Shown piece after piece: positions 44,559 to 58,764 of a stretch of DNA of 64,000 nt. Positions within the stretch are counted from its first letter, which is position 1. Every line of letters starts with the position of its first letter. The notes under the pieces were generated by a model. That model saw nothing but the letters and a program-made list of their open reading frames with translations, made no database searches and was not told where the DNA came from. The stretch comes from an uncultured Chloroflexia bacterium. GTDB lineage: Bacteria > Chloroflexota > Anaerolineae > Promineifilales > Promineifilaceae. The stretch lies in NCBI GenBank assembly GCA_963786145.1, contig CAWAYB010000002.1:226268-290267 (forward strand). The letters run 5' to 3'. The position numbers and the translations under genes were made by a program.

Positions 44559-45480
44559 TTACTTGTCCTCCCTGCGGCGGCGGTACAGGTTCTCCGCAAA
44601 CGGCGCGATCACCACACCAAACATCAGGCCGATTGCGGCCGGCAGGAAATAGACCAGGGGATTGGCCTGCTGAGGCTCTGCCTCAATAGGCTGCTCCGGA
44701 GCCACCGTGGCCCGTACCATGTCGGTCCGGTAGCAGGCGACATCCTTGCTGGGCGCGAGACCTGCCTCCTGTTCCAGCGCCGCATGCATGTCGCCTTCGT
44801 GACACTGGTTACATGTTTGGAGGTCCACCTTGAAGCTGTGGCTGCGCGAGCCATGACCTTCACCGAGCGCGCCATCCTCCACGGTCAGGTGACAGTCAGT
44901 GCAAAGCAAGCCCCTCCTTGGCGTGTCCCGTAAAGGAGAAGAAGTGGGATTGATCCTGGTGGCACTGCTGGCAAAGGGCCTGCGCACTTTCGACACGCAG
45001 GTCGGCCGTATGCGGGTTGTGGCATTGGCTGCAGGCCATATCCTCGGAAGCGTGATGGCTGTCCTGCCACTCGCTGAATGTCTCCGTATGGCAGCTTCCG
45101 CACAGCCGCGAGGAAACATCTGTGGGCATATAGTTGTCCGGATGGTCATCCATCACGGGATAGTGACAGGCCACACAATCTACGCCTTCGGCGAGATACT
45201 CTCCTGTCGCTGCGTCATAACCGCTGGTGTGGCATGCCAGGCACTCAGCAGGTTGACCCTGCTCTTGCCAAGCAGCCTGAAACACCGGATCGGACAGTGC
45301 CTGGGAGTGCGCGCCATGCTCCCAATAATCGCGCAGCCCTTCGTGGCACCCAATGCATTCGTCTGAATCGCCCTCGGTAGGAGCATCCTGACGCGGCGGT
45401 GCCGCTTGCGCCACCGCCACTATGCTGACTAGCAGAAACGAACATATGAACCCTGCCAGGACTCGTTTCGCTATCTCCAT
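44559..45480 (-). pseudogene. Octahaem cytochrome c with C-terminal TM anchor (module 1), frame broken by an apparent 1-nt insertion in a G4 run (44911-44914)
   Basis: ATG at 45480 follows GAGGAGG. Six CxxCH lie in ORF 44896..45546 up to ...GHAKEG. Two more (CTDCH, CNQCH) and the TM helix lie in ORF 44559..45149. Deleting one G restores AKEGLLCTDCH, which aligns with the paralog 54837..55913. Confidence 0.8.
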
Positions 45481-45530
45481 TTGTACCTCCTCTTTGGTGA
45501 AGGTTATACCAATTACCTTCTGGACCAATT

Positions 45531-45545
45531 CCTGGTGAGCACCCA
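45531..45545. repeat. Copy A of an exact 15-nt direct repeat CCTGGTGAGCACCCA
   Basis: Identical 15-mer at 45909-45923, in the same intergenic region between divergent genes. Confidence 0.9.
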
Positions 45546-45908
45546 TCTCACAAGAATGAGGAAGCAGAACAGATATAGTGTAGCAAGACGGTCGTGTGGG
45601 GTAAATCAGGGATTGAGCCTATCCGTGGCTGGGGTCATGGCCCCTTCTTGGGCCACGTTTTGGGTAGCGCAGGCTGCAACCAGCCCAAAATTTGCCGGCC
45701 GGCCGTTCGCCTACCCACGCCCCCTGGGCGATATACCCCACTTCGTGGCCGAAAATCGACTTCTAGAGCTCGAATCATAGGCGCCGGTGGCTCGCGCCTT
45801 TCCGGCGATACCCCATAGAAGAATGGTTTCTTTACCCGATAGACCGGGGCAGACGGCCGTATTATGCTTTACTCAAGCAAATAAGTTTGAGGAAACGCAA
45901 TTGTTTGC

Positions 45909-46235: not shown

Positions 46236-48473
46236 CTAGCTTTCCGGCGCAGCAATCTCAGCCCGTGTCATACCCGCTGTGCTGCCACCAATGTTGGCCA
46301 GCGAGTCGTACAGTAGTTGTAACACGTAGTCTGCGTTATGCGCAAAAGCGCCAGGGTCCTTGGCTGTGTACTGGTAGTTGTAGGCGGCACGAAGCAATTT
46401 GGGCGTCCAGGTATTGAAACCATTTTCGCGATTGACCTCATCCGCGTCTGCAACACCGTCACCGTTCAGGTCTGTGAAGAAGTACGGGTAAGCCGACGGC
46501 GACCAGATGATGCCGCTACCAACCGTGTTAACGGCATAGGCCTGCATCGCCGCGTACAATGCTTCACGCATCGTATCCACTTCGCCGGCAATACCTTCTT
46601 CTACATCACCGTCACCGTCATAGTCGACCTCGCTCACACGAATGCTCGTCAGGTCATCCTTGACTTCGACACCCTCATGGCAATCACCGCATTCTTCAAC
46701 TACAACTTCCAACTCGTGAACGCTGTGACATTCGGTGCAGGTGTCAAACCCAGGCACGTGCTCGTTGCGACCGCTGTATTCCTGCCCGTCATACTGGTAT
46801 CCACCCTGCGCCTCGCTCCCGAAGAGCGTCGCGCCGGCGGCAAAGTAGTGGACATTCAGGAAACGCAGCGCATCTGATTGCTCATCGTCCGTCAACTCGC
46901 CAATCAAGCGATTCACGCTGACGGTAGATTCACGTCCTTGATGGCAGTTGATGCAAAGATTGCTGCCCGGATCGTCAAGCGAAAGCATAGCGCCGCTGGG
47001 GAACTGTACCTGCTCAAACTCGTAGATGGAGTAATCTTCCAAGTTGCTGTGACAGGTGGCACAGTTCAAACCGTTGGCCGGATGCTGTGAGATGGCTACG
47101 CCTTCCGTTGCATACAACGGCAGGCCGGCAGCGGAGTGGCACTTGCTGCAAGAGCCGGGCACCATTCCATCCTCATCCCAATGACGGAACGCCTCTTCTG
47201 AACCGGCGAAATGACCATGATCGATGCGTCTGGCATTGGTCAGATCAATCGGTTCAGCAATCGCTCCATTCAGATCCTCAATGGAGTCATAGAGCAGCTG
47301 GATGATATACTTTCCGCCATGCGCGAACCGGCCCGGATCCTTCAGCGATACCTGGAAGTTGTAAGCCGCTTTTGTCAGGCGCGGTGACCAGGCATTGTAC
47401 GCATTATCGAAGACAGCCTCATCCTCACCGGCTTCACCGTCCCCATTCCCGTCAATGAAGAAATAGGGATAGCTGGCCGCGTTATAGGCGATCGGCGTTC
47501 CGGTCACTTCTGTGGCATAGGCCTGCATTGCTGCATACAGCATGTCACGCATGCCTTCTATCTCGTAGTAGATACCTTCTTCGATGTCCCCGTCACCGTC
47601 ATAGTCAACGAGGGAGCCATTCATGCGCACGTCCACGAAATCGTCGACGGTTTCTACGCCTTCATGGCAGGATTGGCAATCTGCTACTTGGACTTCCAGC
47701 GTGTGCGGATCGTGGCAGGAATTACAGGTGTTGAACCCTTCCACATGGTCAAAACGGGCATCGTAGGACTTGCCGTCATATTCGAAGCCACCTTTGGCCA
47801 ACGTTCCATATTGCGTCGCTGCCGCAGCATAGTAGTGGATATTGGAGAATCCAAGATCCTCACTTACGGCATCAGGCGAATCGACCATGCCGGCCTCTTC
47901 GATTTTGGCGTTGACGCTGACCGTCGATTCCCGGCCCTGATGGCACTGCATGCAGCGGGCCTCAGCCCCAAGACCGGTGAGTTCAATACCGGAGGGCATG
48001 ACCACGCTGGTCATATTGAAGGTGCCTTCGTTATGGCAGGCTTCGCAGGTAACCGTGGTGCCGATGGGGGCGGGATTATCTACAACACCCGCTTCTGTGC
48101 CGTCAGCACCTACATAGTCCAGATATCCAGGCGTGCTGTGGCACTTGGCACAGGACGTGGGAACTTCTGCAGGATCGTCTTCGTTCCAATGGACAAATGC
48201 TTCCGCTTCGGCGTCATTGTGCGGGGATGCTGCCCATTGTTCCTCGAACGGGACCACATCCACGGCCGTTTCCGGCTCCATCATCACTTCTACGACACGC
48301 GTCACCTCAACCTGCACCTCCGGCCCAGGTACTTGAACCTCGGCGCCCGGTATTTCTACGACACGCGTCACTTCGACGGTCTGCGGTTCTTGGCTGCATG
48401 CCACTACCACAAGACTTAATAGTAGCAGCGTGCCCAAGAGCAGGAAATACCGTCTCTTCGGACAACACTTCAT
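46236..48473 (-). CDS. Decahaem cytochrome c lipoprotein with internal duplication (2 x pentahaem unit)
   Basis: AGGAGG RBS; lipobox LVVVAC. Ten CxxCH motifs: CAKCH, CEACH, CMQCH, CNSCH, CQSCH / CSKCH, CATCH, CINCH, CTECH, CGDCH. Each half also carries DYDGDGD(I/V)EEGI and QLLYDS motifs. Confidence 0.85.
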   Translation of the reverse strand: MKCCPKRRYFLLLGTLLLLSLVVVACSQEPQTVEVTRVVEIPGAEVQVPGPEVQVEVTRVVEVMMEPETAVDVVPFEEQWAASPHNDAEAEAFVHWNEDDPAEVPTSCAKCHSTPGYLDYVGADGTEAGVVDNPAPIGTTVTCEACHNEGTFNMTSVVMPSGIELTGLGAEARCMQCHQGRESTVSVNAKIEEAGMVDSPDAVSEDLGFSNIHYYAAAATQYGTLAKGGFEYDGKSYDARFDHVEGFNTCNSCHDPHTLEVQVADCQSCHEGVETVDDFVDVRMNGSLVDYDGDGDIEEGIYYEIEGMRDMLYAAMQAYATEVTGTPIAYNAASYPYFFIDGNGDGEAGEDEAVFDNAYNAWSPRLTKAAYNFQVSLKDPGRFAHGGKYIIQLLYDSIEDLNGAIAEPIDLTNARRIDHGHFAGSEEAFRHWDEDGMVPGSCSKCHSAAGLPLYATEGVAISQHPANGLNCATCHSNLEDYSIYEFEQVQFPSGAMLSLDDPGSNLCINCHQGRESTVSVNRLIGELTDDEQSDALRFLNVHYFAAGATLFGSEAQGGYQYDGQEYSGRNEHVPGFDTCTECHSVHELEVVVEECGDCHEGVEVKDDLTSIRVSEVDYDGDGDVEEGIAGEVDTMREALYAAMQAYAVNTVGSGIIWSPSAYPYFFTDLNGDGVADADEVNRENGFNTWTPKLLRAAYNYQYTAKDPGAFAHNADYVLQLLYDSLANIGGSTAGMTRAEIAAPES

Positions 48474-48566: not shown

Positions 48567-49433
48567 CTACGGTAACGGTGTTCGTGTCACCGGTACGAAA
48601 ACTTCTCGGGTAACAGCAGGCAGTGTAGTAATGGCCGTCTCCTCAAACGTGAAAAGGTAGACCAGCACCGCAAAAATCACCGTGCCCAGCACCGCGCTCA
48701 CGATCAAGAAGTTGCGTTGTCTGTGCCCGGGCGCATCCAAAGCTGCCCCAGGAAACGGATCGCCGCCAGCCTCCAGCCGTTCCAACTCCAAGGCGTGTTC
48801 CTCTTCCATCTGGTCACGCGGCAGCGAACCAGTCCACATGCTGGGGTTGAAATTCTTAATTAATACATTGTACAGGTGCCAAATAACAATGGACACGGCC
48901 GCCAGGATCGCCTCGCCGCCATGTGCCGCCTTCGCTGCCGGGATAAACTGCCCGGGCAAGAAATTGGTCACAGCGATCGGGTTCCAAAGCATGAACCCGG
49001 TCACGATCATCACGCCGGTGCCCCACACCACCGCCCAATACTCGAACTTCTCGCCGAAATTGAACTTGGGCATCCTGGGGTGGTGCGCCACCAGGCCCAA
49101 ATTATACCCCACCCAATTCTTTAGATCGATAGCATCCTGCCACGTGGGCAATACACGCATCCGCTCCCGCTTGACGTACAGACGATAGGCGGAGGTAAAC
49201 AGATGATACACCGTACCCAATACCAGGAAAAACGCGGAATAACGGTGTACGATGCGGACCGTTTCAATACCGCCCATGGCATTGATCATGCTCTGTGAAA
49301 TATCCGCAGCCGCATATTTCTGGGGGATGCCCGTGATACACAGCAGGGTAAAACTCAGCAGCAGGATGATATGCTCGATCCGCGCCATGAGGCGGAAGCG
49401 CGGGAATTGTTGTTGCTCTTCAACGGAGTTCAC
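48567..49433 (-). CDS. Membrane di-haem cytochrome b, FdnI/HydC (Ni/Fe-hydrogenase b-type cytochrome) family
   Basis: 288-aa ORF. Family-typical ARIEHIILLLSFTLLCITG...RIVHRYSAFF...KFNFGEKFEYWAVVWG...HGGEAILAAVSIVIWHLY, with 4-5 TM helices. Confidence 0.8.
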   Translation of the reverse strand: MNSVEEQQQFPRFRLMARIEHIILLLSFTLLCITGIPQKYAAADISQSMINAMGGIETVRIVHRYSAFFLVLGTVYHLFTSAYRLYVKRERMRVLPTWQDAIDLKNWVGYNLGLVAHHPRMPKFNFGEKFEYWAVVWGTGVMIVTGFMLWNPIAVTNFLPGQFIPAAKAAHGGEAILAAVSIVIWHLYNVLIKNFNPSMWTGSLPRDQMEEEHALELERLEAGGDPFPGAALDAPGHRQRNFLIVSAVLGTVIFAVLVYLFTFEETAITTLPAVTREVFVPVTRTPLP

Positions 49434-49435
49434 AA

Positions 49436-51109
49436 TTATTCGCTCCTTGAGGAAGACCCCAACCGCGTGCGCACACGCCGGTATACATCGGTCATCACGA
49501 GAAATGCCAAGCCGCCGGCCGTCAGCGGGATGATGATTTGATAGAACAGATTCACCAGGTAGACCAGTGTGTTATGCTCCAGCGAAGGCTCGAAATGGCT
49601 GGTCCAGGCGTTCGGGAAGTTCGCGGTGGCATCCGGATGGCACTGCTGGCAGGTCACCAACAGGTTCTCTTTAATTCCTGCGTCGGGATCGTCCGGGCTC
49701 TTGATGTTGTGCACACCGTGGCAGTCATAGCACACGGCCGAATTCGGGTGCGCGTTTGGATCTTCAGGGTCAAACAACATCGTTGTCGTACCGTGGAAAT
49801 CGGCCACGTAGGTGTTGAAGACCTCAGTGGAGATGTCGTACTTGTCCATCAACTCCTGATCCGCATGGCACTCGGCGCAGAGCAAAGGCGAACGCACGCG
49901 GAAGAGCGTCGTGGTTGGATCGGCGATGTCATGAACGCCGTGGCAATCGATGCATGTCGGCACATCTTCATTGTCATCCAACAGCAGCGCCTCACCGTGC
50001 ACGCTTTCGGCGTACTCCTGGTAGATCTCGCTGTGGCACTGCTCACAAATCTGGGAAACGCGTGCGCGCGGTTCGTCCGGCACAGGCGTATCGTGCGCGC
50101 CGTGACAATCTGTGCAAACGGCCGCGTCCAAATTTCCCTCCATTAGGGCATCGCCGTGTACACTGTCCAGGCTCTTCTCGAAGTTACGCTCATGGCAACT
50201 GCGGCAAGTTTGGTTGCGCAAAATGGTATATTCACGCGCGCTGTCTACTTCGACCGGCTCATGCGGGAAGCGGTAATCCGTGTGGCAATCGGCGCATATC
50301 AAGGCATCCCACTCGTTACTGGCGCCGTGCACCGAGTCATGCAGTGCCTGGGCATCCACCGTTAGCGACACAACCTCACCGTCTGGAAACTCCATCGTCA
50401 GGCCCGGTTGGCCATGACAAGCCAGGCAGTAGTCACTGTTGACCTGCTGCTGTGCAAACAGCCCACTGTTGATCAGTGCCGTAAGCGCGGCAGCATCCAC
50501 CTGTTCAATGCCTGATTCGGTATGGCAGGTAACGCAGGCTTCGGTACCTTCACCGGCGCGCATTTGCTCTTTAGTCAACACCTCATGCGATCCATGACAG
50601 TCTGTGCACGCCACCGGGTTCTCTGAATCAGGTCCAGGATGACTGGTTACATGGGGTTCCTGGTGGCAGGTCTCGCAAGCAGTGGACTGCGCAAGCTCAA
50701 ATTCACGCAAGTCAGCCGCCTCTTGCGGCGGGTGCGGGAACTGGTATTCTGCCGGTTGGTGGCAGCTCGTACAGGCCAGGGGGTTCTCGGCCTGGTCACC
50801 GTGGGCAGAAGCAGCCAGCGCGTCCATATCCACAACTGCGGGCACGCTTTCTCCTGACGGGAAGGTGACAACCGCTTCTGTGTCTACGTGACAGCTGCGA
50901 CAGGCAAGATCGCTGGCCGGGTGATCCTGCGGCAGTGGCCGATCCTGGGCCACGAGCAAACCCTGCCGGGTGAAGGAGGGTGATTCCGTACCAGGATCTG
51001 CCTGGACCGCGTTCGGAGGGAAGACAAAAAACGCCGCCACCGCACAGAAAACGATGGTGCTGGCGATTAGCCCAAAAGCAAGAGCCTTTTTCTGCGATGT
51101 AGGGTGCAA
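49436..51109 (-). CDS. 14-haem cytochrome c with N-terminal signal/anchor and C-terminal TM helix
   Basis: TTG start follows AAGGAG. Fourteen CxxCH motifs counted by eye. C-terminal helix LVYLVNLFYQIIIPLTAGGLAFLV. Stop lies 3 nt from the cytochrome b start. Confidence 0.85.
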   Translation of the reverse strand: MHPTSQKKALAFGLIASTIVFCAVAAFFVFPPNAVQADPGTESPSFTRQGLLVAQDRPLPQDHPASDLACRSCHVDTEAVVTFPSGESVPAVVDMDALAASAHGDQAENPLACTSCHQPAEYQFPHPPQEAADLREFELAQSTACETCHQEPHVTSHPGPDSENPVACTDCHGSHEVLTKEQMRAGEGTEACVTCHTESGIEQVDAAALTALINSGLFAQQQVNSDYCLACHGQPGLTMEFPDGEVVSLTVDAQALHDSVHGASNEWDALICADCHTDYRFPHEPVEVDSAREYTILRNQTCRSCHERNFEKSLDSVHGDALMEGNLDAAVCTDCHGAHDTPVPDEPRARVSQICEQCHSEIYQEYAESVHGEALLLDDNEDVPTCIDCHGVHDIADPTTTLFRVRSPLLCAECHADQELMDKYDISTEVFNTYVADFHGTTTMLFDPEDPNAHPNSAVCYDCHGVHNIKSPDDPDAGIKENLLVTCQQCHPDATANFPNAWTSHFEPSLEHNTLVYLVNLFYQIIIPLTAGGLAFLVMTDVYRRVRTRLGSSSRSE

Positions 51110-51221: not shown

Positions 51222-52514
51222 CTAATTCGCGCCAGCCGCCTCGCCTTCCACCGGCGCCACTTCTTCCACAGGCGGAACATGGTAGCCACGGGCCACAGCC
51301 TGCAGCTCTTCGTCCGTTACCTCCGGCCCAAAACCGTCTGGATTGTGACAACTGCGGCAAGCAAAGCTGAGCGAAATCTGCGGCACGGAAACGAGTCCAT
51401 CGCTCGTTTCGACAAACTGTTCGATCTGTTCCGGATCAATAGCCACCGCATGAGTACGGAGATCGCCAGTGAACTGTTCCGGGGCGCCGACAGCGCTCTG
51501 GATCAAATGCGGCATATGGCAGCCAAGGCAATCCACTGCAATCCGATCGTGCACCCCACCATCATCATTGGCAGCCTCAGCAAAGTGGCAGTTCTCACAT
51601 CCCACGCGCGTCGTCGCTACGCCGGCAGCCGCTAATTGCACAACGCCAGTATGTGGATCATGGCAGGAAACACAGTCCAAAACAGCGTGCTTGCCGGGGA
51701 ATAGATCCTGGTACTCGTCCTGATGCTGAATGAAACCTTCCGACGCGCTGACCGGACCGATGTCCCCGCGGGTATGGCAAGAAGTACAGGCTTCCGCATC
51801 ACGATCAATGATTGGCCGGATGGAAGCTGGGTTGTTGACGTGTAGACTGCCAGGGCCATGGCACCCTTCACACTGCACCCCGGGAAAAGCGAATGTACCT
51901 ACCATGCCAGGCATTCCATCCTGATTGCCTTCCGGACTGTATCCCGTAGTGTGGCAGGAACCACAATCATAGGCTTGTTCTTGTCCCGGATGGTAGGCGA
52001 CCCAGTCGTCGCCCAGATCCAGATCTGGATTTTCAAGATTGTATTGTGTGGTTGCCTCTTCACCGCCCGTGATGAGATAGCCCTCGTTATCAACAAAGCG
52101 TGCTTTCCAGTTATATCCACCAACGACATAGCTGATCTCATCCCATGTGAACCCTTCCGGTGGACCATCAAGTTCGCTAAAGGGATATTCTGGAGCTTGT
52201 CCGTCAACAACAGGGGTCAGTTGGTGCGGGTGGCCGCTGCCCATGAAGACATCAACCGTCTCCTGGTGGCATTCGGCGCAGGCTTCGCTGCCGACATATT
52301 GGGGGGGCTGGAAACTGACTCCGTCGGCGCCAGCAGGTCCAGCGGGACCCGCTGCACCGTCGCGTCCGGCAGGGCCAGGCAAACCTTGAGGGCCTTCCGG
52401 ACCAACTGGGCCGGCGGAGCCTTCAGCACCTGCACAACCGGCAATGACAAATGCCATCACCAATAGCAAAATAACTAGGCGTCTGCGATCCACAACACCC
52501 TCCTCAAGGTCCAT
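51222..52514 (-). CDS. Octahaem cytochrome c lipoprotein with N-terminal collagen-like (Gly-X-Y)11 segment
   Basis: Lipobox VIAGC, then GSAGPVGPEGPQGLPGPAGRDGAAGPAGPAGADG (aa 32-65). Eight CxxCH motifs follow: CAECH, CGSCH, CEGCH, CTSCH, CVSCH, CENCH, CLGCH, CRSCH. Confidence 0.85.
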   Translation of the reverse strand: MDLEEGVVDRRRLVILLLVMAFVIAGCAGAEGSAGPVGPEGPQGLPGPAGRDGAAGPAGPAGADGVSFQPPQYVGSEACAECHQETVDVFMGSGHPHQLTPVVDGQAPEYPFSELDGPPEGFTWDEISYVVGGYNWKARFVDNEGYLITGGEEATTQYNLENPDLDLGDDWVAYHPGQEQAYDCGSCHTTGYSPEGNQDGMPGMVGTFAFPGVQCEGCHGPGSLHVNNPASIRPIIDRDAEACTSCHTRGDIGPVSASEGFIQHQDEYQDLFPGKHAVLDCVSCHDPHTGVVQLAAAGVATTRVGCENCHFAEAANDDGGVHDRIAVDCLGCHMPHLIQSAVGAPEQFTGDLRTHAVAIDPEQIEQFVETSDGLVSVPQISLSFACRSCHNPDGFGPEVTDEELQAVARGYHVPPVEEVAPVEGEAAGAN

Positions 52515-52791: not shown

Positions 52792-54024
52792 TTAATGCTC
52801 TTTGGTGCCAGTCGCATAGGGGAACAATGGCAGGTGCCGTACTCCGAGGGTAAAGGCCAGCAGTGCATATCCCGCAATACCCACACTCACCGCTACCTCT
52901 ACCAGTGAAGGAGAATAGCTGAGTACAATGATGTTCCCGAGGATGCCCGGTGACCAGCTTGGTGGCACAACCAGGCCAGAAAGGGTCACATTCCAGCGAT
53001 TCACGACCAGGCCAACTACGGCCAATCCCAGACCAAGAATTAGCGCCCGGTCATTGCGGCGCAGCGGCGGGTACAGAAAGATGAACGCCGGGATAATTGC
53101 GCCCAGAAATACCTCTACGAACCAGAAAGTGCGAGTATAAGGCGTCGTCAACTGCAGGCGTAGAAATGCATCGGCCGTGCCCGGCGTGTGGCTATAATAG
53201 GAAGTTGCCGCCCAATCCCACAGTTTTAAGTAGAGGTAAGCGAGCATCGCATAGCCGGAGAACCGGGCGATGCGCCACTTCAGCTCGTCACTAATCAGAT
53301 CTTTGTGGGTGAACTTTCCCGCCACAAGGGTGAGGAACAACGTCAGCGCAGTCCCCGCCGCAACGGCCGACATGATAAACATCACCGGCATGGAGGGTTT
53401 GTACCAGATCTCGCGCCCCGTCAACACCCCGTAGGTCGCCCCCAGAGATGATTGGTGCAGTAGGGACAGGGATAAGCCGACAACCGCGAAAGCCGGCGTC
53501 AGCCTGTGCAGGTAGTCACCAACAACCCGCAGCTGCGGCCAGCGATCAAAATACTTGCTGTCCAAGAGGATGGGTAAGAACTCCAGGAACAAGATCGTGG
53601 AATACAGGATGACACACCATGTGATCTCCCACAACACCGAATGGACGTTCCAATAGACCAGTGGATGCCAGAAGCGATCCGGCCGCCCAATGTCCATCGC
53701 CAGAGCAATCATTGCCGAGGTATAGCCAATGAAACCTACGAATACGGCCGCACGCGCGATCTCACGAAATTGGGTGAACTTGAACAGATAAGCAATGGCG
53801 GAAAAGGTAAACGCCCCGGCTCCCAGGCCGATGGCTGAAAGATCATGCGTAATCCACAGCCCCCAGGGAACCTGGTCGGTGAGGTTCGTAACCTGCAAGC
53901 CGTGCAGCAGGGTCTGGATTGCCCCCCAGATGCCAATCGCAATGAGGATAGCTAGCAGACCGTACCACATGGTGATCGGCGCAATGATTCTCCGTTCTTC
54001 GGCCGTTATTTGTCCAGCAGACAT
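52792..54024 (-). CDS. NrfD/PsrC-family polytopic membrane subunit (module 2)
   Basis: Start at MSAGQI (ATG at 54024, behind GGAGGAAG, 1 nt after the upstream stop). LQVTNLTDQVPWGLWITHDLSAIGLGAGAF...DIGRPDRFWH is paralogous to module 1. Confidence 0.85.
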   Translation of the reverse strand: MSAGQITAEERRIIAPITMWYGLLAILIAIGIWGAIQTLLHGLQVTNLTDQVPWGLWITHDLSAIGLGAGAFTFSAIAYLFKFTQFREIARAAVFVGFIGYTSAMIALAMDIGRPDRFWHPLVYWNVHSVLWEITWCVILYSTILFLEFLPILLDSKYFDRWPQLRVVGDYLHRLTPAFAVVGLSLSLLHQSSLGATYGVLTGREIWYKPSMPVMFIMSAVAAGTALTLFLTLVAGKFTHKDLISDELKWRIARFSGYAMLAYLYLKLWDWAATSYYSHTPGTADAFLRLQLTTPYTRTFWFVEVFLGAIIPAFIFLYPPLRRNDRALILGLGLAVVGLVVNRWNVTLSGLVVPPSWSPGILGNIIVLSYSPSLVEVAVSVGIAGYALLAFTLGVRHLPLFPYATGTKEH

Positions 54025-54025
54025 A

Positions 54026-54850
54026 TCAGACTTCCTCCAACGCTGGCCGTACATAATGGACTTTGGGCTGCGTGCCAAAATCCTCGCGCAACACAAAGGT
54101 GTCGTTATCTTCCAGGAAGCGCGAAATCGGGCTTTCCACATCGTTAAAGTCCCCAAAAACGCGCGCGCCGACCGGGCAGATGTTGACGCAAGCCGGTGTT
54201 ACCTGTGGATCGACCCCAGGCTTGAGGCCGTACTCCACAGCCCGGTCAATACGCTGCACGCAAAAGGTACATTTTTCAACCACACCACGCGGCCGCCGTT
54301 CCACTTCGGGCGTGCCCCAGGTCGGAACATATTCGTTTTCTTCTGTGCTTTGCTTCCAGTTAAAACGGCGTACGTCGTATGGGCAGGCAACCTCGCAATA
54401 GCGGCAGCCGATGCAGCGATCATAGTCCATCGCCACCAGCCCGTCTTCGCGCACCCAGGTTGCACCTACGGGGCACACTTTGACACACGGCGCTTCCTGG
54501 CAGTGCAGACACGGCCGTGTCATGAAGAAATCTGTCGCGTTCTCCGTGCGCTCGTCAAACCCGACATTCCAGCGCATATCGTCTTCCGGCACATCATTGA
54601 CAGCCTGGCAAGCCCACAGGCAATATTGGCAGCCGATGCACTTGGACAAATCAATGCCCATATGCCATTGATTGGCCGAACTCGCCTCCGTCTCGCGTGA
54701 CAAACCCTCGATCGCCTCGGCCGACAACGGTCCGCCGGAGAAAAGCTGTGAGACAACCACGGCCGCGCCGGTCACCCCGGCGATCTTCAGAACATCGCGA
54801 CGGCTCAGAAGCGCGGTGCCATCCTTTTTCTCCCCATCACCTTTCGTCAT
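54026..54850 (-). CDS. Tat-exported 4x[4Fe-4S] ferredoxin subunit, NrfC/PsrB family (module 2)
   Basis: Twin-arginine signal LLSRRDVLKIAGVTGAAVV. Cys clusters CIGCQYCLWAC, CLHCQEAPCVKVCP, CIGCRYCEVACP and CTFCVQR...CVNICP. Confidence 0.9.
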   Translation of the reverse strand: MTKGDGEKKDGTALLSRRDVLKIAGVTGAAVVVSQLFSGGPLSAEAIEGLSRETEASSANQWHMGIDLSKCIGCQYCLWACQAVNDVPEDDMRWNVGFDERTENATDFFMTRPCLHCQEAPCVKVCPVGATWVREDGLVAMDYDRCIGCRYCEVACPYDVRRFNWKQSTEENEYVPTWGTPEVERRPRGVVEKCTFCVQRIDRAVEYGLKPGVDPQVTPACVNICPVGARVFGDFNDVESPISRFLEDNDTFVLREDFGTQPKVHYVRPALEEV

Positions 54851-55913
54851 CGTGCTCTTCCTCTTCTGCCGCGACCGCTTCGGCATCCGCTTCCTGGCGG
54901 CGGCTCCGGCTGTTGTTGGCTACAATCCAGGCGGTCGATCCTCCCAGGACGAGACCAATGAGGCCTCCCTGGAACAGCAGTGTGGCGTTCTGGCTGGCTA
55001 GCGCGGATTCCAGGGCTTGAATCTGCTGTTGAGGTGACAGGCCGGTTTCTTTTTCAATCTGTTCCACAACAGGCATGTCTTCACTCGCTGCAGCGCTTTC
55101 GTTGCTTACGCTTTGTACGGTGCTGGCCCCACCCTCGTATCCGGGCAAGGAAAAGCCGGCATGCAAGGCATCGGTATGGCAAGCCACACATGTCTTCGGC
55201 GTAATCGTAAAAGCATGCCCCGTGGGTACGATTCCATCCGCCGGGGGAGTCTCGGGTGGGATCACCAGCGCATGGCAATCAACACAGCCAATATCCTTCG
55301 TGTGATGCGTATCTTCCAGGTACGCATCCATGGATTCGCCATGACAATTAATACACATGTCATCCGGATTCTCGAACAGAGCCTGTTGGCTGTGCGGATC
55401 ATGGCAGGCCGAGCAGCCGATGGTTTCCGTGGCGTGCCCGGTAAGCCGCCATTCCCCCAGAGTCGTGGTGTGGCACGTGCCGCAGTACTCGGTATCGGCC
55501 AGGATCGGCACCGGCGCCGACGGGTGGTCCGTCGCTACCTGGCCGTGGCAACCCTCACAGCTGATGCCTTCGGCGTCATATTCACCGGTGGACTGCACGT
55601 AGTTCGTGGTGTGGCAGGCCAGGCACTCTCCTGGCTCGCCCATACCCAGCCAACGCTCCTGAAACACCGGATCGCTGTACGCATTGGCGTGAGGGCTTGG
55701 CTCCCAATGACTGGAAACATCGAGGTGACAGTCCTGACACTCCTGCGTCGTATAGTACTCAACCTCGACAGCACCTTCGGGAACGGGTTCATCGTCCTGT
55801 CGTGAGTCCGCAGCGGCGGCAATCTGTACCGTTAACATCAGACTCACCAGCCCAACTGCAAGTCCTGCAAGAATGGCTCGTATGTAGGGCTGTAAGCGCG
55901 TTTTGTTACTCAT
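54837..55913 (-). CDS. Octahaem cytochrome c with C-terminal TM anchor (module 2, intact paralog)
   Basis: Start at MSNKTRL. Eight CxxCH motifs: CQDCH, CLACH, CEGCH, CGTCH, CSACH, CINCH, CVDCH, CVACH. C-terminal helix LLFQGGLIGLVLGGSTAWIVA and an acidic tail. Confidence 0.85.
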   Translation of the reverse strand: MSNKTRLQPYIRAILAGLAVGLVSLMLTVQIAAAADSRQDDEPVPEGAVEVEYYTTQECQDCHLDVSSHWEPSPHANAYSDPVFQERWLGMGEPGECLACHTTNYVQSTGEYDAEGISCEGCHGQVATDHPSAPVPILADTEYCGTCHTTTLGEWRLTGHATETIGCSACHDPHSQQALFENPDDMCINCHGESMDAYLEDTHHTKDIGCVDCHALVIPPETPPADGIVPTGHAFTITPKTCVACHTDALHAGFSLPGYEGGASTVQSVSNESAAASEDMPVVEQIEKETGLSPQQQIQALESALASQNATLLFQGGLIGLVLGGSTAWIVANNSRSRRQEADAEAVAAEEEEHDDER

Positions 55914-55988
55914 AACTCTCTCGCAGTGAGATACCTCTTGTGACACGCACCGGTATATCCAGGCGCCCGTCTCCTTGCCAAACTTTGC

Positions 55989-56933
55989 TCATGGTGAAGG
56001 AAGCGCATTCCGTTTCAGGGCCGCATTTGCTTCCTGCTGTGCAATCTCTCGGGCAATAAACTCCCAGAACGCTTCCTGAGCACCCGTTGCCGGCTTGCGC
56101 TTCTGGTAGCCGATGTGAATGTCGCGATAGATGTCGAGGCCACGGACGTTCACATGAGCTACACGGCCGTCGACCAACCTGGACACCACAATTTGAGAGA
56201 CGAAGCCAACCCCCAAACCCTCCTTCACAGAGAGTGCAATTGCCTCCGAACTTCCCAGAATGAGCATGGTGTCTAGATCTTCGATGTCCAGGCCAACGCT
56301 GGTCAGCCCCCTGCGCACCGCTGATTCAGTTCCCGAGCCTTCTTCTCTGAAAATGAATTCAGCCTCCAACAGTTCCGCTGGCTCAATTTCACCCCGGTCT
56401 GCCCACGGGTGATCTGCCGGAGCAATGAGAATTACCGGGTCAATCGTGAACCGGCGCGTCTCAACCGAGTTGCAGATCATGAACGGCTCACTGACCATCG
56501 CGATATGAACCTCGCCATCACACAGCATTTCAAATGCTTGCCCCTGCGAAGTCACGTTACACGATACACGCACCAACGGGAATTGACGGTGAAAACTGGC
56601 CAACAGCTGTGGCAAGATATATTTGCCTGGTGTCGTACTGCACCCCACTAACAAATGCCCGTGCACTTCGCCTTCCAGAGATTTCATCGTTTCCACAATT
56701 TGCACCGATCGCTCCACCATATCGCGCGCCAGGGGTAGCAGTGCCATTCCTGCTTCGGTCAGTTCCATATGCCGGCCCGAACGGTTAAACAGAGTCTGCC
56801 CGAGATTGAGCTCGAGAGACTGGATGTGCTGGCTTACGCTGGGCTGACTCATATGGAGCAGGCGCGCTGCCTGCGTGAAATTCAAGGTTTCCGCGGCGAC
56901 AAGAAACACATTAAGCTGGTGGGTATCTAACAT
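55989..56933 (-). CDS. LysR-family transcriptional regulator
   Basis: Start at MLDTHQLNVFLVAAETLNFTQAARLLHMSQPSVSQHIQSLE (classic LysR HTH), followed by a substrate-binding domain. Confidence 0.85.
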   Translation of the reverse strand: MLDTHQLNVFLVAAETLNFTQAARLLHMSQPSVSQHIQSLELNLGQTLFNRSGRHMELTEAGMALLPLARDMVERSVQIVETMKSLEGEVHGHLLVGCSTTPGKYILPQLLASFHRQFPLVRVSCNVTSQGQAFEMLCDGEVHIAMVSEPFMICNSVETRRFTIDPVILIAPADHPWADRGEIEPAELLEAEFIFREEGSGTESAVRRGLTSVGLDIEDLDTMLILGSSEAIALSVKEGLGVGFVSQIVVSRLVDGRVAHVNVRGLDIYRDIHIGYQKRKPATGAQEAFWEFIAREIAQQEANAALKRNALPSP

Positions 56934-57062
56934 GGTCGACCTCTTGTTTGTGAATATTGTAACAAAATCTATTATCAACTCAATAGTCTAGGTATCAAGT
57001 TTAATTGCTTTTCCTTATGGAGACCAAGAAGCAAAAGCTATAAGTAAAACCTTGTTTTGTAA

Positions 57063-57169: not shown

Positions 57170-58735
57170 TTGAAGCGAATATCTAGAAATCAGGGGGGGC
57201 TCTCTCGCTTGGCCCTCTGCTGCGGGGTGTTTGCCCTGGCGTGGCTGGCAGCTGGCTGCAGGGGCACAGGATCTGCGCCGGACACAGCCGTCGCCGGCGC
57301 CCCTCTGCTCGAACCAACGGCCGCCGGCGCCACGGCCACCAGGGAAGCAACGCCGGAACCAAAACCCACGGCCATGATTGCCGCCGCAGGCCCAGATACC
57401 TGCACTGACTGCCACACCGACAAGGACCTTCTGATTGATACTGCTGATCCGGTGGAGGAGGTAGTGAGCGAAAACGAAGGCGAAGGTTGAGGTGGTGAGG
57501 TGGCTCCGTTGGAGCCATGGGAAAAAGTACTCGTAGACGGCGAACTCTATCCGCCAACCGTTCATGGCCAGATCCCCTGCGCCGACTGCCATGCCGGCGA
57601 CCAAACAGCGACAGACAAGGCCGTTGCCCACGAAGGGTTAGTCGACAACCCCAGCAACGACCCCGACGCAACCTGTGGCGAGTGTCACCCTAACGTCGTG
57701 GCGATGAATGAATACAGCCTGCATACGAGCCTGCAGGGCTATTGGACCGTGCTCGATCAACGGGTCATACCTGAAGATCACGAGCAAGTCGAAACGATGT
57801 TCGGCAACCACTGCAACTCCTGCCATTCCAGTTGTGGCGAATGCCATGTCAGCCAACCCAATCTTGTCGGCGGTGGCCTGATCGAAGGACACCTCTTCAA
57901 TGAAACGCCTTCCATGACCCGTAACTGCACTGCCTGCCACGGCAGCCGCGTGGGCAACGAATACCTTGGCAAGCACGAAGATCTGCGCCCGGACGTTCAT
58001 TTCCGCCAGGGGCGCATGAGCTGCGTTGACTGCCACTCCGGCCATGAAATGCACGGTCAACCTGCCAATTGCGAGGAATGCCATACAGGTCCGGAAGCGC
58101 AAAGCGTGCCCCCCGCCGATCACCGTTACAGCGGCGTTCAGTCGCCACGCTGTGAAACATGCCATGTTCAGGTTGCTCTTGGTGACGATGGCATCGAGAT
58201 GCACGAGCAGCACTCCGGTGATTTATCTTGCCAGGTGTGCCATTCCATCGCCTATACCAGCTGTGACGGCTGCCACGTAGCCATCAGCGAGACCACTGGC
58301 AATGCGTTCTACGCCACGGACGGTTCCTACTTAGACTTCAAGATCGGCAAGAACCCGCTGCGCAGTTTTGACCGGCCGTATGAATATGTCACACTGCGCC
58401 ACGTCCCGGTTTCCACGGATGCCTTCGACTTCTACGGTGAAGCGCTGCAGAAGAATTTCGACGCGCTGCCGACGTGGACCTACACCACTCCGCATAACAT
58501 TCAACTCGAGACACCGCAGACGGAAAGCTGCGAAGCGTGCCACGAGAATCCTGATCTGTTCCTCACGGCCGATAAAGTGGCCGAGAACGAGCTGCAGGCC
58601 AACCTGCCCGTCATCGTCGAAAGGATCCCACCGCAAACTTTGCCAGAGGTCAGCATCGAACAATTGCTGGCCGATCCGACCACAGATATCCCTCCCGCCG
58701 AGGGTGATAGTGCTCCCGCGGAGAGTTCAAATTAG
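57170..58735 (+). CDS. Dodecahaem cytochrome c lipoprotein containing one in-frame TGA (57488-57490): selenocysteine recoding candidate, or a nonsense mutation
   Basis: TTG at 57170 follows AAGGAG; lipobox LAAGC. One CxxCH (CTDCH) lies before the TGA. After it, 11 CxxCH continue in the same frame (ORF 57500..58735), and that part has no signal peptide of its own. Confidence 0.65.
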
Positions 58736-58764
58736 GGTAAGCATACCCATTGAGGAGAAATGCA

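What the first reader, a model, noticed from the sequence alone, without database searches (positions are those of the whole stretch)
52320..52421. Collagen-like (Gly-X-Y)11 stalk fused between a lipobox cysteine and an octahaem cytochrome c
**What the sequence shows.** Directly after the lipoprotein signal (VIAGC) the protein reads GSA GPV GPE GPQ GLP GPA GRD GAA GPA GPA GAD G. That is 11 uninterrupted Gly-X-Y triplets rich in Pro, which I confirmed at the DNA level on the minus strand.

**Established knowledge.** Uninterrupted GXY runs of this length form trimeric collagen triple helices in bacterial collagen-like proteins such as Scl and BclA. The rise is about 0.29 nm per residue.

**Inference.** The segment could trimerise the octahaem domain. 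It could also act as a rigid spacer of about 9-10 nm, holding the haem domain away from the membrane and across the wall. I do not know of a described collagen-cytochrome fusion.
Basis: partly seen in the sequence, partly recalled or inferred. Interest (0 to 1): 0.8.

Follow-up and report, generated by a model that had tools for sequence, protein, structure and literature searches.

The report
Collagen-stalked lipoprotein octahaem cytochrome
A surface electron-transfer cytochrome of a Chloroflexota bacterium is joined to its lipid anchor by a short, strictly conserved collagen-type segment, most likely a rigid three-stranded stalk of about 10-11 nm, and this design recurs in many uncultured bacteria without, as far as I could find, having been described.

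Summary
Gene 51222-52493 (-) encodes a signal peptide with lipobox IAGC. After it come 13 uninterrupted Gly-X-Y triplets (52314-52430), an 11-residue connector and an eight-CXXCH cytochrome whose closest solved relative is OcwA, the surface reductase of Thermincola.

It is not a strain-specific expansion:
- 118 of the 120 best homologues (57-70% identity) carry 10-14 triplets straight after the lipobox Cys.
- The Cys-to-first-haem distance is 52 residues in 110 of 118.
- Length changes in a 75-sequence alignment are whole triplets.
- Every Gly column uses 3-4 synonymous codons across genomes.
- There is no DNA tandem repeat.

Among GTDB genomes, 25 of 29 Chloroflexota loci have the stalk and 0 of 51 loci from other phyla do. 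In those other phyla the signal peptide runs straight, or through a short non-collagen linker, into the haem domain. The same lipobox-collagen design also occurs in an unrelated OmcA/MtrC decahaem family.

Best reading: a triple-helical stalk that trimerises the cytochrome and holds it a fixed distance from the membrane. Triple-helix formation and trimer state are inferred, not shown. Ten full-text literature searches found no description of this fusion. I rate it a new variant of known kinds, with moderately high interest.

The parts
51222..52493 (-). Whole gene: a 423-aa lipoprotein precursor plus stop codon. An alternative upstream ATG at 52514 would give 430 aa.
   Evidence: ORF list. 100% identical to public protein P0001, which starts at MDRRRL. 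Coordinates computed.
52499..52505 (-). Shine-Dalgarno-like GAGGAGG, 5 nt upstream of the GTG start at 52493.
   Evidence: Read directly from the sequence. The 'LEEG' seen in some longer gene calls (P0003, P0011) is the translation of this element.
52437..52493 (-). Signal peptide, residues 1-19: n-region DRRR followed by a hydrophobic core.
   Evidence: Sequence. The equivalent region is present in all aligned homologues.
52434..52445 (-). Lipobox I-A-G-C, with Cys20 as the presumed lipidated first residue of the mature protein.
   Evidence: Fits the [LVI][ASTVI][GAS]C pattern. Cys20 is invariant in 75 of 75 sequences. Lipidation itself was not tested.
52314..52430 (-). Collagen-like run of 13 uninterrupted Gly-X-Y triplets (residues 22-60): GAEGSAGPVGPEGPQGLPGPAGRDGAAGPAGPAGADGVS. 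This is the proposed triple-helical stalk, about 11 nm long.
   Evidence: Pfam PF01391 27.3 bits. Conserved in 118 of 120 homologues. Gly invariance. X/Y composition. Synonymous Gly codons. No DNA tandem repeat.
52281..52313 (-). Connector of 11 residues, FQPPQYVGSEA, between the last triplet and the first haem Cys.
   Evidence: Its length is exactly 11 residues in 118 of 118 orthologues. The (Y/F)VGS motif is where the mature protein begins in many homologues from other phyla that lack the stalk.
51225..52280 (-). Octahaem c-type cytochrome domain. CXXCH motifs lie at 52266-52280, 51951-51965, 51858-51872, 51774-51788, 51660-51674, 51585-51599, 51516-51530 and 51345-51359.
   Evidence: All motif residues invariant. 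Best PDB relatives are OcwA 6i5b (E 8e-17, and 2e-18 with the profile) and the S-layer undecahaem 6qvm.
49436..51109 (-). Downstream partner: a 557-aa multihaem cytochrome with a C-terminal transmembrane helix.
   Evidence: Pfam. Sequence. Immediately downstream of the stalked cytochrome in most Chloroflexota loci.
48567..49433 (-). Downstream partner: a membrane b-type cytochrome, like formate dehydrogenase subunit gamma and the Ni/Fe-hydrogenase b-type cytochrome.
   Evidence: PF01292. TIGR01583-like. Syntenic in Chloroflexota loci.
46236..48473 (-). Downstream partner: a 745-aa lipoprotein multihaem cytochrome whose post-lipobox spacer is a different repeat (EVTRVVEV).
   Evidence: Orthologues and their spacers. 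Synteny.
52792..55946 (-). Upstream module: a 369-aa multihaem cytochrome (54837-55946), a TAT-exported 4Fe-4S protein (54026-54886) and an NrfD/QrcD-like membrane quinone-site subunit (52792-54156).
   Evidence: Pfam. NCBIfam similarity to DsrO, QrcC and QrcD. Same order in L001 and L011.

Best explanation
The gene encodes a Sec-exported lipoprotein. After lipidation of Cys20, the mature chain begins with a bona fide collagen-like domain: 13 Gly-X-Y triplets, with a family core of 12. Three chains wind these segments into one triple helix. The helix has two effects.

1. It holds three OcwA-like octahaem heads together, 24 haems in all.
2. It acts as a stiff stalk of fixed length, about 10-11 nm at roughly 0.286 nm per residue. 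The stalk lifts the redox heads off the membrane that carries the lipid anchor and through the surface layer.

The heads then exchange electrons between external acceptors or donors and the membrane-anchored cytochromes and quinone-site modules encoded next to the gene.

Shown: the sequence architecture, its conservation, the length constraint, the taxonomic pattern and the operon context.

Inferred: lipidation, triple-helix formation, trimer state, stalk function, and the direction and partners of electron flow.
For: Architecture:
- Signal peptide, lipobox, 13 GXY, an 11-aa connector and 8 CXXCH.

Conservation:
- 118 of 120 best homologues at 57-70% identity have 10-14 triplets directly after the lipobox Cys.
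- In a 75-sequence alignment, 11 stalk Gly columns are invariant and a 12th is at 90% or more, while X and Y positions vary.
- In that alignment, length changes inside the stalk are whole triplets.
- The Cys-to-haem-1 distance is 52 aa in 110 of 118, 55 in 6, and 51 or 56 in one each. The run always ends 11 aa before haem 1.
- Each Gly column uses 3-4 synonymous codons across 16 genomes. Mean DNA identity in the stalk is 59%. There is no DNA tandem repeat. Selection therefore acts on Gly at every third residue, which is the specific requirement of a triple helix.

Composition:
- Pro is 45% of X and 24% of Y positions, which is collagen-like.
- The family profile matches true collagens at E 8e-13.

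Distribution:
- 25 of 29 Chloroflexota loci carry 7-22 triplets.
- 0 of 51 loci from other phyla do. There the signal peptide, or a short non-collagen linker, leads straight into (Y/F)VGSxxCxxCH.
- Ardenticatena, in this group, is reported as monoderm with surface multihaem cytochromes (PMC5808234).

Head domain:
- The nearest solved relatives are the surface reductase OcwA of a Gram-positive bacterium and an S-layer undecahaem cytochrome (PMC6703420).

Operon:
- Syntenic with membrane-anchored multihaem cytochromes, a b-type cytochrome and an NrfCD-type module.
- The second lipoprotein cytochrome of the operon also has a conserved spacer of about 35-50 aa, of a different repeat type.

Recurrence:
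- An unrelated OmcA/MtrC decahaem family shows lipobox plus 5-42 GXY triplets in 46 of 75 homologues.
Against: - No physical evidence exists for a triple helix or a trimer.
- Twelve to 14 triplets without hydroxyproline is short. From general knowledge, (Pro-Pro-Gly)10 melts near room or body temperature, so stability may depend on the membrane anchor and on head-head contacts.
- No trimerisation or nucleation domain is recognisable next to the stalk.
- OcwA is a monomer/dimer mixture, not a trimer.
- The AlphaFold2 monomer model is poor (pLDDT 62) and says nothing about oligomers.
- Four Chloroflexota homologues lack the stalk (L019, L027, L028, L060).
- The design also occurs in diderm phyla, so crossing a monoderm wall cannot be the whole explanation.
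- Wall thickness in these organisms is unknown.
- The Pfam hit in the window protein itself only just passes.
Confidence: 0.6

Rival explanations
1. The segment is a monomeric, extended, Pro-rich (polyproline-II-like) tether. It only gives the lipoprotein reach and flexibility, as in many Gram-positive lipoprotein linkers or the Pro-Thr tethers of Geobacter PgcA. There is no triple helix and no trimer.
For: - The run is short and cannot contain hydroxyproline.
- No adjacent trimerisation domain was found.
- OcwA is monomer/dimer.
- The neighbouring lipoprotein cytochrome uses a quite different spacer of similar length, which suggests that distance alone may be the selected property.
- PgcA shows that Pro-rich tethers exist in extracellular cytochromes (PMC5732950).
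Against: - A simple tether does not need Gly at every third residue. Yet 11 Gly columns are invariant, and a 12th is at 90% or more, in 75 sequences, while X and Y positions and the Gly codons drift.
- In the 75-sequence alignment, stalk length changes are whole triplets. Across 118 orthologues the spacing is 52 aa in 110 and one triplet longer in 6.
- No interruption of the GXY phase occurs in 118 orthologues.
Confidence: 0.2
2. The collagen-like segment is mainly an interaction or assembly module. It either forms heterotrimers with paralogous stalked cytochromes or with other collagen-like envelope proteins, or it binds a sheath or S-layer. The cytochrome would then be built into a larger surface lattice or filament rather than standing as an isolated stalk.
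For: - Several genomes carry 2-3 paralogous stalked copies in tandem or nearby (L003, L007, L012, L016, L018, L023).
- In L014, giant collagen-like ORFs lie 1.2 kb downstream of the orthologue.
- Some homologues add a Cys- and Asp-rich 'CWDLNGDG...' module after the stalk, and the same module punctuates those giant collagens.
- These organisms are filamentous (Ardenticatena, PMC5808234).
Against: - The 64-kb window has only one GXY run.
- The tightly fixed length and the position directly after the lipid anchor argue for a membrane-proximal stalk.
- No partner protein is conserved in synteny other than cytochromes.
Confidence: 0.1
3. The run is a neutral, strain-specific low-complexity expansion or an annotation or assembly artefact with no function.
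For: Low-complexity composition, and only a borderline Pfam score in the window protein.
Against: - Conserved in 118 of 120 homologues and in 25 of 29 Chloroflexota genomes.
- No DNA tandem repeat.
- Diversified codons with Gly retained.
- The reading frame continues into an essential haem domain.
- An identical protein was found independently in a JGI metagenome contig.
Confidence: 0.01

Closest known systems
OcwA (TherJR_2595) of Thermincola potens, PDB 6I5B; also the S-layer undecahaem cytochrome of Carboxydothermus ferrireducens, PDB 6QVM
   Same: Both are multihaem c-type cytochromes on the cell surface of bacteria without an outer membrane, and are proposed terminal reductases for extracellular electron transfer. 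OcwA is the best PDB sequence match: E 8e-17 for the single sequence and 2e-18 for the profile, over the first ~180-210 residues of the haem domain, including the beta-sheet insert. 6QVM is the best fold match.
   Different: OcwA has nine haems, two of them penta-coordinate, is a monomer/dimer mixture, and its paper mentions neither a collagen segment nor a lipoprotein anchor. The window protein has eight haems. Similarity covers only the N-terminal half. No NCBIfam model reaches its cut-off.
BclA of the Bacillus anthracis exosporium, and Scl1/Scl2 of Streptococcus pyogenes (bacterial collagen-like 'lollipop' proteins)
   Same: The plan is the same: an anchor, a collagen-like triple-helical stalk and a globular head projected away from the surface. 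From general knowledge, in BclA the anchor is N-terminal, the head is C-terminal and trimeric, and stalk length sets the length of the surface nap.
   Different: There is no homology beyond GXY composition: 1wck at E 0.2, and NF038330 SclA at 21 bits against a cut-off of 400. The anchor here is a lipobox Cys rather than an exosporium-targeting N-terminus or LPXTG. The stalk is much shorter and nearly fixed in length. The head is a redox protein, not an adhesin or a C1q-like domain.
OmcA/MtrC decahaem lipoprotein cytochromes (Shewanella type)
   Same: These are lipobox-anchored, surface-exposed multihaem cytochromes for extracellular electron transfer. A Planctomycetota, Myxococcota and Chloroflexota branch of this family carries the same lipobox plus GXY stalk.
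   Different: The haem domain is unrelated in sequence (tblastn did not link them). From general knowledge, the characterised Shewanella proteins have no collagen segment. Stalk length in that branch is much more variable, at 4-42 triplets.
PgcA of Geobacter sulfurreducens
   Same: An extracellular multihaem cytochrome in which Pro-rich repeats act as tethers. The authors even tested for collagen-like secondary structure by CD (PMC5732950).
   Different: Its repeats are Pro-rich but not described as Gly-X-Y (Pro-Thr type, from general knowledge). They lie between haem domains rather than after a lipid anchor, and no collagen-like CD signal was found.
Eukaryotic membrane and defence collagens with short stalks (class A scavenger receptors and MARCO, ficolins, collectins, C1q)
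   Same: A short collagen stalk of about 11-25 triplets joins an N-terminal anchor or bundle to C-terminal globular heads, which it trimerises and spaces. This comparison rests on general knowledge.
   Different: They are unrelated in origin, use hydroxyproline and a coiled-coil neck or a trimeric head for nucleation, and have recognition rather than redox functions.

Membership tests
Collagen-like triple-helix proteins (Pfam PF01391) | Uninterrupted (Gly-X-Y)n repeat | tested here: met
   13 triplets at 52314-52430. No interruption in 118 orthologues.
Collagen-like triple-helix proteins (Pfam PF01391) | Score at or above the Pfam gathering threshold | tested here: met
   27.3 bits against 27.2, a marginal pass. 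Most homologues carry a precomputed PF01391 hit. Longer-stalk relatives score 32-72 bits. The family profile hits type I collagen at E 8e-13.
Collagen-like triple-helix proteins (Pfam PF01391) | Evolutionary constraint specific to a triple helix: Gly invariant at every third residue, and indels in multiples of three | tested here: met
   11 invariant Gly columns plus one at 90% or more in 75 sequences. Only whole-triplet indels in that alignment. Spacing 52 aa in 110 of 118 orthologues and one triplet longer in 6. 3-4 synonymous Gly codons per column.
Collagen-like triple-helix proteins (Pfam PF01391) | High imino-acid content in X and Y positions | tested here: met
   Pro is 45% of X and 24% of Y positions in 118 orthologues.
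Collagen-like triple-helix proteins (Pfam PF01391) | Forms a trimeric triple helix (CD signature, trimer mass, protease resistance) | not testable with these tools
   Only a monomer AlphaFold2 run was possible (pLDDT 62; the stalk is modelled as coil).
Collagen-like triple-helix proteins (Pfam PF01391) | Adjacent trimerisation or nucleation domain | tested here: inconclusive
   No known trimerisation domain was found by Pfam or NCBIfam. The head's distant relative MccA appears at E 1e-5 and is trimeric from general knowledge. OcwA is monomer/dimer.
Bacterial lipoproteins (Lgt/LspA substrates) | Signal peptide ending in the lipobox [LVI][ASTVI][GAS]C | tested here: met
   DRRR n-region, hydrophobic core, I-A-G-C. 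The Cys is invariant in 75 of 75 sequences.
Bacterial lipoproteins (Lgt/LspA substrates) | Actual diacylglyceryl modification and signal peptidase II cleavage | not testable with these tools
   Needs mass spectrometry or globomycin experiments.
OcwA / NrfA-MccA-type multihaem cytochromes | Multiple covalent haem sites (CXXCH) | tested here: met
   Eight motifs, all invariant.
OcwA / NrfA-MccA-type multihaem cytochromes | Significant sequence similarity to OcwA | tested here: met
   6i5b at E 8e-17 (query 64-275) and 2e-18 with the profile. Coverage is only the N-terminal half.
OcwA / NrfA-MccA-type multihaem cytochromes | Nine haems, with two penta-coordinate putative active-site haems (OcwA proper) | tested here: not met
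   Eight CXXCH motifs. Ten invariant or nearly invariant non-motif His residues are enough for bis-His ligation of all eight haems. It is therefore a relative of OcwA, not an orthologue.
OcwA / NrfA-MccA-type multihaem cytochromes | Shared fold and haem packing | tested here: inconclusive
   The model is poor. Foldseek's best hit is 6qvm at E 1e-6 but with TM only 0.25; MccA is at E 0.03.
Scl1/Scl2 LPXTG collagen-like adhesins; Lcl | Family HMM above cut-off, and a C-terminal LPXTG anchor | tested here: not met
   NF038330 scores 21.4 bits against 400, and NF046116 scores 18.2 against 500. There is no LPXTG in the sequence.

The most novel reading that the evidence does not exclude
'Collagen-stalked cytochromes' are a general and so far undescribed class of cell-surface redox machines. 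A triple-helical ruler, anchored by three lipidated cysteines, presents a trimeric 24- or 30-haem head at a defined height above the membrane. This design arose repeatedly: in OcwA-like octahaem proteins of Chloroflexota, in OmcA/MtrC-like decahaem proteins of Planctomycetota, Myxococcota and Chloroflexota, and in further cytochromes such as L008 12401-12544. It would be a way of getting electrons through the wall, S-layer or LPS layer, with stalk length tuned to envelope thickness.
Probability: 0.45. Interest if true: 0.78.

Novelty: new variant of a known kind. Interest (0 to 1): 0.66.

Why it matters
How bacteria without an outer membrane move respiratory electrons from the cytoplasmic membrane across the wall to minerals, electrodes or partner cells is still poorly understood. 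Only a few Firmicutes proteins, such as OcwA, have been characterised, and none from Chloroflexota, although Ardenticatena shows bidirectional extracellular electron transfer.

A lipid-anchored cytochrome on a rigid stalk of fixed length gives a concrete and testable structural answer. It predicts a trimeric 24-haem terminal complex. It would also extend the known uses of prokaryotic collagen from adhesion and spore coats to bioenergetics.

The family is large: 1590 hits in the word-indexed search and 2065 representatives at E 1e-3 or better. A second, unrelated cytochrome family uses the same design, so the point is general rather than a curiosity of one genome.

The short, hydroxyproline-free stalk with a naturally fixed length could also serve as a building block for displaying redox proteins at defined distances from membranes or electrodes.

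Tried and rejected
- The AlphaFold2 monomer with a 75-sequence alignment gave a poor model (pLDDT 62, pTM 0.43). As a result, Foldseek against the PDB only weakly supports the OcwA/6QVM/MccA relationship. No multimer prediction was available.
- NCBIfam has no model for the haem domain. All hits were far below cut-off.
- The look-up of encoding contigs had no record for P0001. The closest genome hit is a Candidatus Promineifilaceae MAG at 66% identity.
- Tandem Repeats Finder found nothing in the stalk DNA. This rejects a recent slippage expansion.
- A neighbour-joining tree of 144 representative haem domains placed GXY-bearing tips in several clusters, with at least 11 state changes and a root without a stalk. 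The tree is too crude, and includes fragments and multi-module proteins, to decide between several gains and several losses. I use it only to say that the trait is patchy outside the window's own clade.
- I considered that A. maritima ARMA_0580 might be an orthologue. It is 430 aa, has 7 CXXCH, is surface-localised and runs anomalously at 74 kDa (PMC5808234). I could not obtain its sequence, so this stays a lead.
- Ten full-text literature searches found no description of a collagen-cytochrome fusion. The combination 'collagen triple helix' plus 'multiheme' returned zero papers. Subscription-only papers were not searched.
- I did not calculate triple-helix melting temperature from host-guest propensities, because I could not source the parameter table here.
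Full report
**1. What is in the sequence**

The minus-strand ORF 51222-52514 encodes MDLEEGV-VDRRRLVILLLVMAFVIAGC-A-(GAE GSA GPV GPE GPQ GLP GPA GRD GAA GPA GPA GAD GVS)-FQPPQYVGSEA-CAECH....

The uninterrupted Gly-X-Y run is 13 triplets, at 52314-52430, or 14 if the lipobox 'GCA' is counted.

The probable start is GTG 52493. It is preceded by GAGGAGG at a 5-nt spacing, and the 100%-identical public protein P0001 begins there. Either start leaves the signal peptide, the lipobox I-A-G-C and the repeat inside the protein. A start downstream of the repeat would delete the export signal and haem 1.

There are eight CXXCH motifs. With a Gly frequency of 0.076 in the six-frame translation, 3.5e-10 runs of this length are expected by chance. 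The window holds no other run longer than 5 triplets.

**2. Is it a conserved feature or a local expansion?**

A search of 5.8 billion proteins returned 1590 homologues. Of the best 120, at 57-70% identity, 118 have 10-14 Gly-X-Y triplets immediately after a lipobox Cys. The two exceptions are 714-716-aa proteins with 16 haems, which are tandem duplications of the octahaem module.

- In a 75-sequence alignment, 11 stalk glycines (G28 to G58) are invariant and a 12th (G25) is at 90% or more. X and Y positions vary, and the only length changes inside the stalk are whole triplets.
- Across 118 orthologues the lipobox Cys lies 52 residues from the first haem Cys in 110 cases, 55 in 6, and 51 or 56 in one each. 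The run always ends exactly 11 residues before haem 1.
- At the DNA level there is no tandem repeat.
- Across 16 genomes the stalk is only 59% identical in DNA, and every Gly column uses three or four synonymous codons.

Selection therefore acts on 'Gly at every third residue' and on length. That is the specific requirement of a collagen triple helix and is not needed by a merely flexible linker.

Pro occupies 45% of X and 24% of Y positions. The window protein passes Pfam Collagen only just, at 27.3 against 27.2 bits. A profile of the family matches type I collagen at E 8e-13 over profile positions 18-61.

**3. What the head is**

The haem domain has no curated family; all NCBIfam hits are far below cut-off. 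Its best solved relative by sequence is OcwA of Thermincola potens: 6i5b, E 8e-17, and 2e-18 with the profile. Next come the S-layer undecahaem cytochrome of Carboxydothermus ferrireducens (6qvm), MccA and the octahaem nitrite reductases.

The AlphaFold2 monomer model is poor (pLDDT 62), so the Foldseek result is only weak support: 6qvm at E 1e-6 with TM 0.25, then MccA.

OcwA is described as the cell-surface terminal reductase of a Gram-positive iron reducer. It has nine haems and is a monomer/dimer mixture, and its paper does not mention collagen or a lipoprotein anchor (PMC6703420).

The window protein has eight haems. It also has ten invariant or nearly invariant His residues outside the motifs, enough for bis-His ligation throughout. 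This suggests electron transfer rather than catalysis, but that is an inference. It is a relative of OcwA, not an orthologue.

**4. Where the stalk occurs**

In one genome per GTDB species, the 80 best loci split cleanly.

- 25 of 29 loci labelled Chloroflexota carry 7-22 triplets after a lipobox. These include Promineifilaceae, Ardenticatenaceae, Caldilineaceae and Anaerolineales. The closest is a Promineifilaceae MAG at 66% identity.
- Four Chloroflexota loci lack the stalk: L019, L027, L028 and L060.
- None of the 51 loci from other phyla has more than three triplets. These include Nitrospirota, Desulfuromonadales, Thermodesulfobacteriota, Planctomycetota, Methanoperedens and Shewanella maritima. 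In them the signal peptide, or a short non-collagen linker, leads straight into the conserved (Y/F)VGSxxCxxCH.

An exhaustive HMMER search of 1.84 billion cluster representatives with the haem domain alone gave 2065 hits. Of the best 149, 26 carry 5-41 triplets, nearly all directly after a lipobox Cys. A rough neighbour-joining tree puts all members of the window's own clade among the stalked ones and suggests a patchy distribution elsewhere. It is too crude to count gains and losses.

Ardenticatena maritima, the cultured member of this group, is reported to be monoderm, to carry surface multihaem cytochromes and to transfer electrons both to and from electrodes (PMC5808234).

**5. The design is not confined to this family**

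While scanning the loci I found the same N-terminal plan on other cytochromes:

- L008 12401-12544, with 16 triplets.
- L043 9605-9667, with 7 triplets.
- A 786-aa decahaem protein in a Planctomycetaceae MAG (L055 10848-13205, minus strand, 12 triplets).

A search with the L055 protein showed that it belongs to the OmcA/MtrC family. 46 of its 75 homologues have 5-42 triplets close after a lipobox, and many of the rest are N-terminally truncated fragments. The named members come from Phycisphaerae, other Planctomycetota, Polyangiaceae, Myxococcales and Chloroflexi.

So lipobox, collagen-like stalk and multihaem cytochrome together form a recurrent architecture in at least two unrelated cytochrome families. 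It also occurs in phyla with an outer membrane.

Stalk length is far more variable in that second family than in the window's clade.

**6. Genomic context**

The gene sits in a cytochrome island, all on the minus strand. In order it reads:

- a LysR regulator (55989-56978);
- a 369-aa multihaem cytochrome with a C-terminal membrane helix;
- a TAT-exported 4Fe-4S protein, DsrO/QrcC-like;
- an NrfD/QrcD-like membrane subunit;
- the stalked cytochrome;
- a 557-aa multihaem cytochrome with a C-terminal membrane helix;
- a b-type cytochrome;
- a 745-aa lipoprotein multihaem cytochrome.

The block 'stalked cytochrome, 557-aa cytochrome, cytochrome b, 745-aa cytochrome' is syntenic in most Chloroflexota loci. 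The upstream NrfCD-type module is in the same place in L001 and L011.

The 745-aa lipoprotein and its orthologues carry a different conserved spacer after their lipobox: two to four EVTRVVEV repeats, about 35-50 residues. Both lipid-anchored cytochromes of the operon are thus held off the membrane by spacers of similar length.

This context fits a quinone-linked electron conduit ending in lipid-anchored, elevated cytochromes. The direction of electron flow and the external partner are not determined.

**7. Most likely mechanism, and how sure**

I consider it near certain that this is a genuine, selected collagen-like domain in a lipoprotein cytochrome.

I give 0.6 to the fuller mechanism. In it, three chains form a triple helix that trimerises the heads (24 haems) and acts as a rigid stalk. 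The stalk would be about 10-11 nm long: 36-39 residues at roughly 0.286 nm each, from established knowledge of collagen geometry. It sets the height of the heads above the anchoring membrane.

Against this:
- The stalk is short and free of hydroxyproline.
- No nucleation domain is recognisable.
- OcwA is not trimeric.
- Nothing physical was tested.

The main rival is a monomeric extended tether (0.2). It explains the length constraint but not the invariant glycines. An assembly or heterotrimer role (0.1) is suggested by paralogues and by the giant collagen-like genes next to the orthologue in L014. A neutral expansion or artefact is refuted.

**8. Comparison with what is known, and novelty**

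In function it resembles the 'lollipop' collagen-like surface proteins BclA and Scl1/2, and the short-stalked eukaryotic membrane and defence collagens. That resemblance rests on general knowledge. It is not a member of those families.

Its head is a relative of OcwA. Its anchoring is that of OmcA/MtrC-type lipoprotein cytochromes. PgcA of Geobacter is a precedent for Pro-rich tethers in extracellular cytochromes, but not of collagen type (PMC5732950).

One JGI automatic product name already reads 'Collagen triple helix repeat/Cytochrome c554', so databases have seen the co-occurrence. Ten full-text searches found no paper that describes it, and 'collagen triple helix' plus 'multiheme' returned nothing. 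The library lacks most subscription journals.

I class it as a new variant of known kinds: a new and recurrent combination. Interest is 0.66.

Noticed in passing
window 46236-48473 (-): A 745-aa lipoprotein multihaem cytochrome made of two similar halves, each with a DYDGDGD-type acidic motif. After its lipobox (VVAC) it carries 2-4 copies of an 'EVTRVVEV' repeat as a spacer of about 35-50 aa. This spacer is conserved in most orthologues in the Chloroflexota loci, so it is a second, non-collagen spacer type in the same operon.
   Followed up: partly
L055 10848-13205 (-), and homologues P0273-P0347: OmcA/MtrC-family decahaem lipoproteins of Planctomycetota, Myxococcota and Chloroflexota also carry Gly-X-Y runs close after the lipobox. 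46 of 75 have 5 or more triplets, up to 42. Length is much more variable than in the window's family.
   Followed up: partly
L008 12401-12544 (+); L043 9605-9667 (+): Two further cytochromes with a lipobox followed by 16 and 7 Gly-X-Y triplets. The L008 gene appears different from the octahaem family, because the (Y/F)VGS motif is absent. The L043 gene keeps a YVG motif and may be a distant paralogue. Neither family was identified.
   Followed up: no
L014 10276-13126 (+): Giant collagen-like ORFs with runs of 61, 38, 37, 139 and 20 triplets lie 1.2 kb downstream of the stalked-cytochrome orthologue in a Caldilineaceae MAG. The collagen segments are separated by a Cys- and Asp-rich module, 'CWDMNHNGQADADEDINGDGKVDTWDCE'. 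A similar 'CWDLNGDG...' module follows the stalk in some cytochrome homologues (P0153, P0155, P0175, P0180, P0216, P0217, P0255). In the two of these I scanned (P0153, P0217), Pfam does not recognise it. It may be a calcium-binding or disulfide knot that nucleates trimers.
   Followed up: partly
P0009, P0014, P0121; L051; L053 4341-7730: The octahaem module also occurs as covalent tandem arrays: 2 modules with 16 haems in P0009, P0014 and L051; 3 modules with 24 haems in a Saprospiraceae MAG (L053); and about 4 in the 1398-aa P0121. P0009 and P0014 are lipoproteins with short, non-collagen linkers, and none of these arrays has a collagen stalk at the N-terminus. Multimerising this module seems to be a recurring theme.
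   Followed up: no
window 42499-45546 (-): A second small multihaem cytochrome (216 aa), a TAT 4Fe-4S protein (264 aa) and an NrfD-like subunit (424 aa) form a duplicate quinone-interacting module just downstream of the cytochrome operon.
   Followed up: no
window 57500-61428 (+): A 411-aa multihaem cytochrome is followed by an 892-aa protein with six rhodanese domains and a CBM5/12 hit. This hints that sulfur compounds (thiosulfate or polysulfide) may be linked to this cytochrome island.
   Followed up: no
L007 8055-8200 (+); L018 3540-3700 (+): Two orthologues have an in-frame stop (L007, '...EYVGT*SCAECH') or a frameshift (L018) between the stalk and the first haem motif. These are either pseudogenes or MAG assembly errors.
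   Followed up: no
window 33914-35650 (-), 30303-32162 (-), 24194-26155 (-): CcmF (System I cytochrome c maturation), a 619-aa protein with two class-I cytochrome c domains, and a PMT_2-family glycosyltransferase lie in the same window. The organism therefore has the machinery needed for the many c-type cytochromes encoded here.
   Followed up: no
literature lead (PMC5808234), not in the window: Ardenticatena maritima ARMA_0580 is a 430-aa, surface-localised cytochrome with 7 CXXCH and a predicted mass of 48 kDa that runs at 74 kDa on SDS-PAGE. Its size and anomalous migration would fit a stalked orthologue, but I could not obtain its sequence to check.
   Followed up: no
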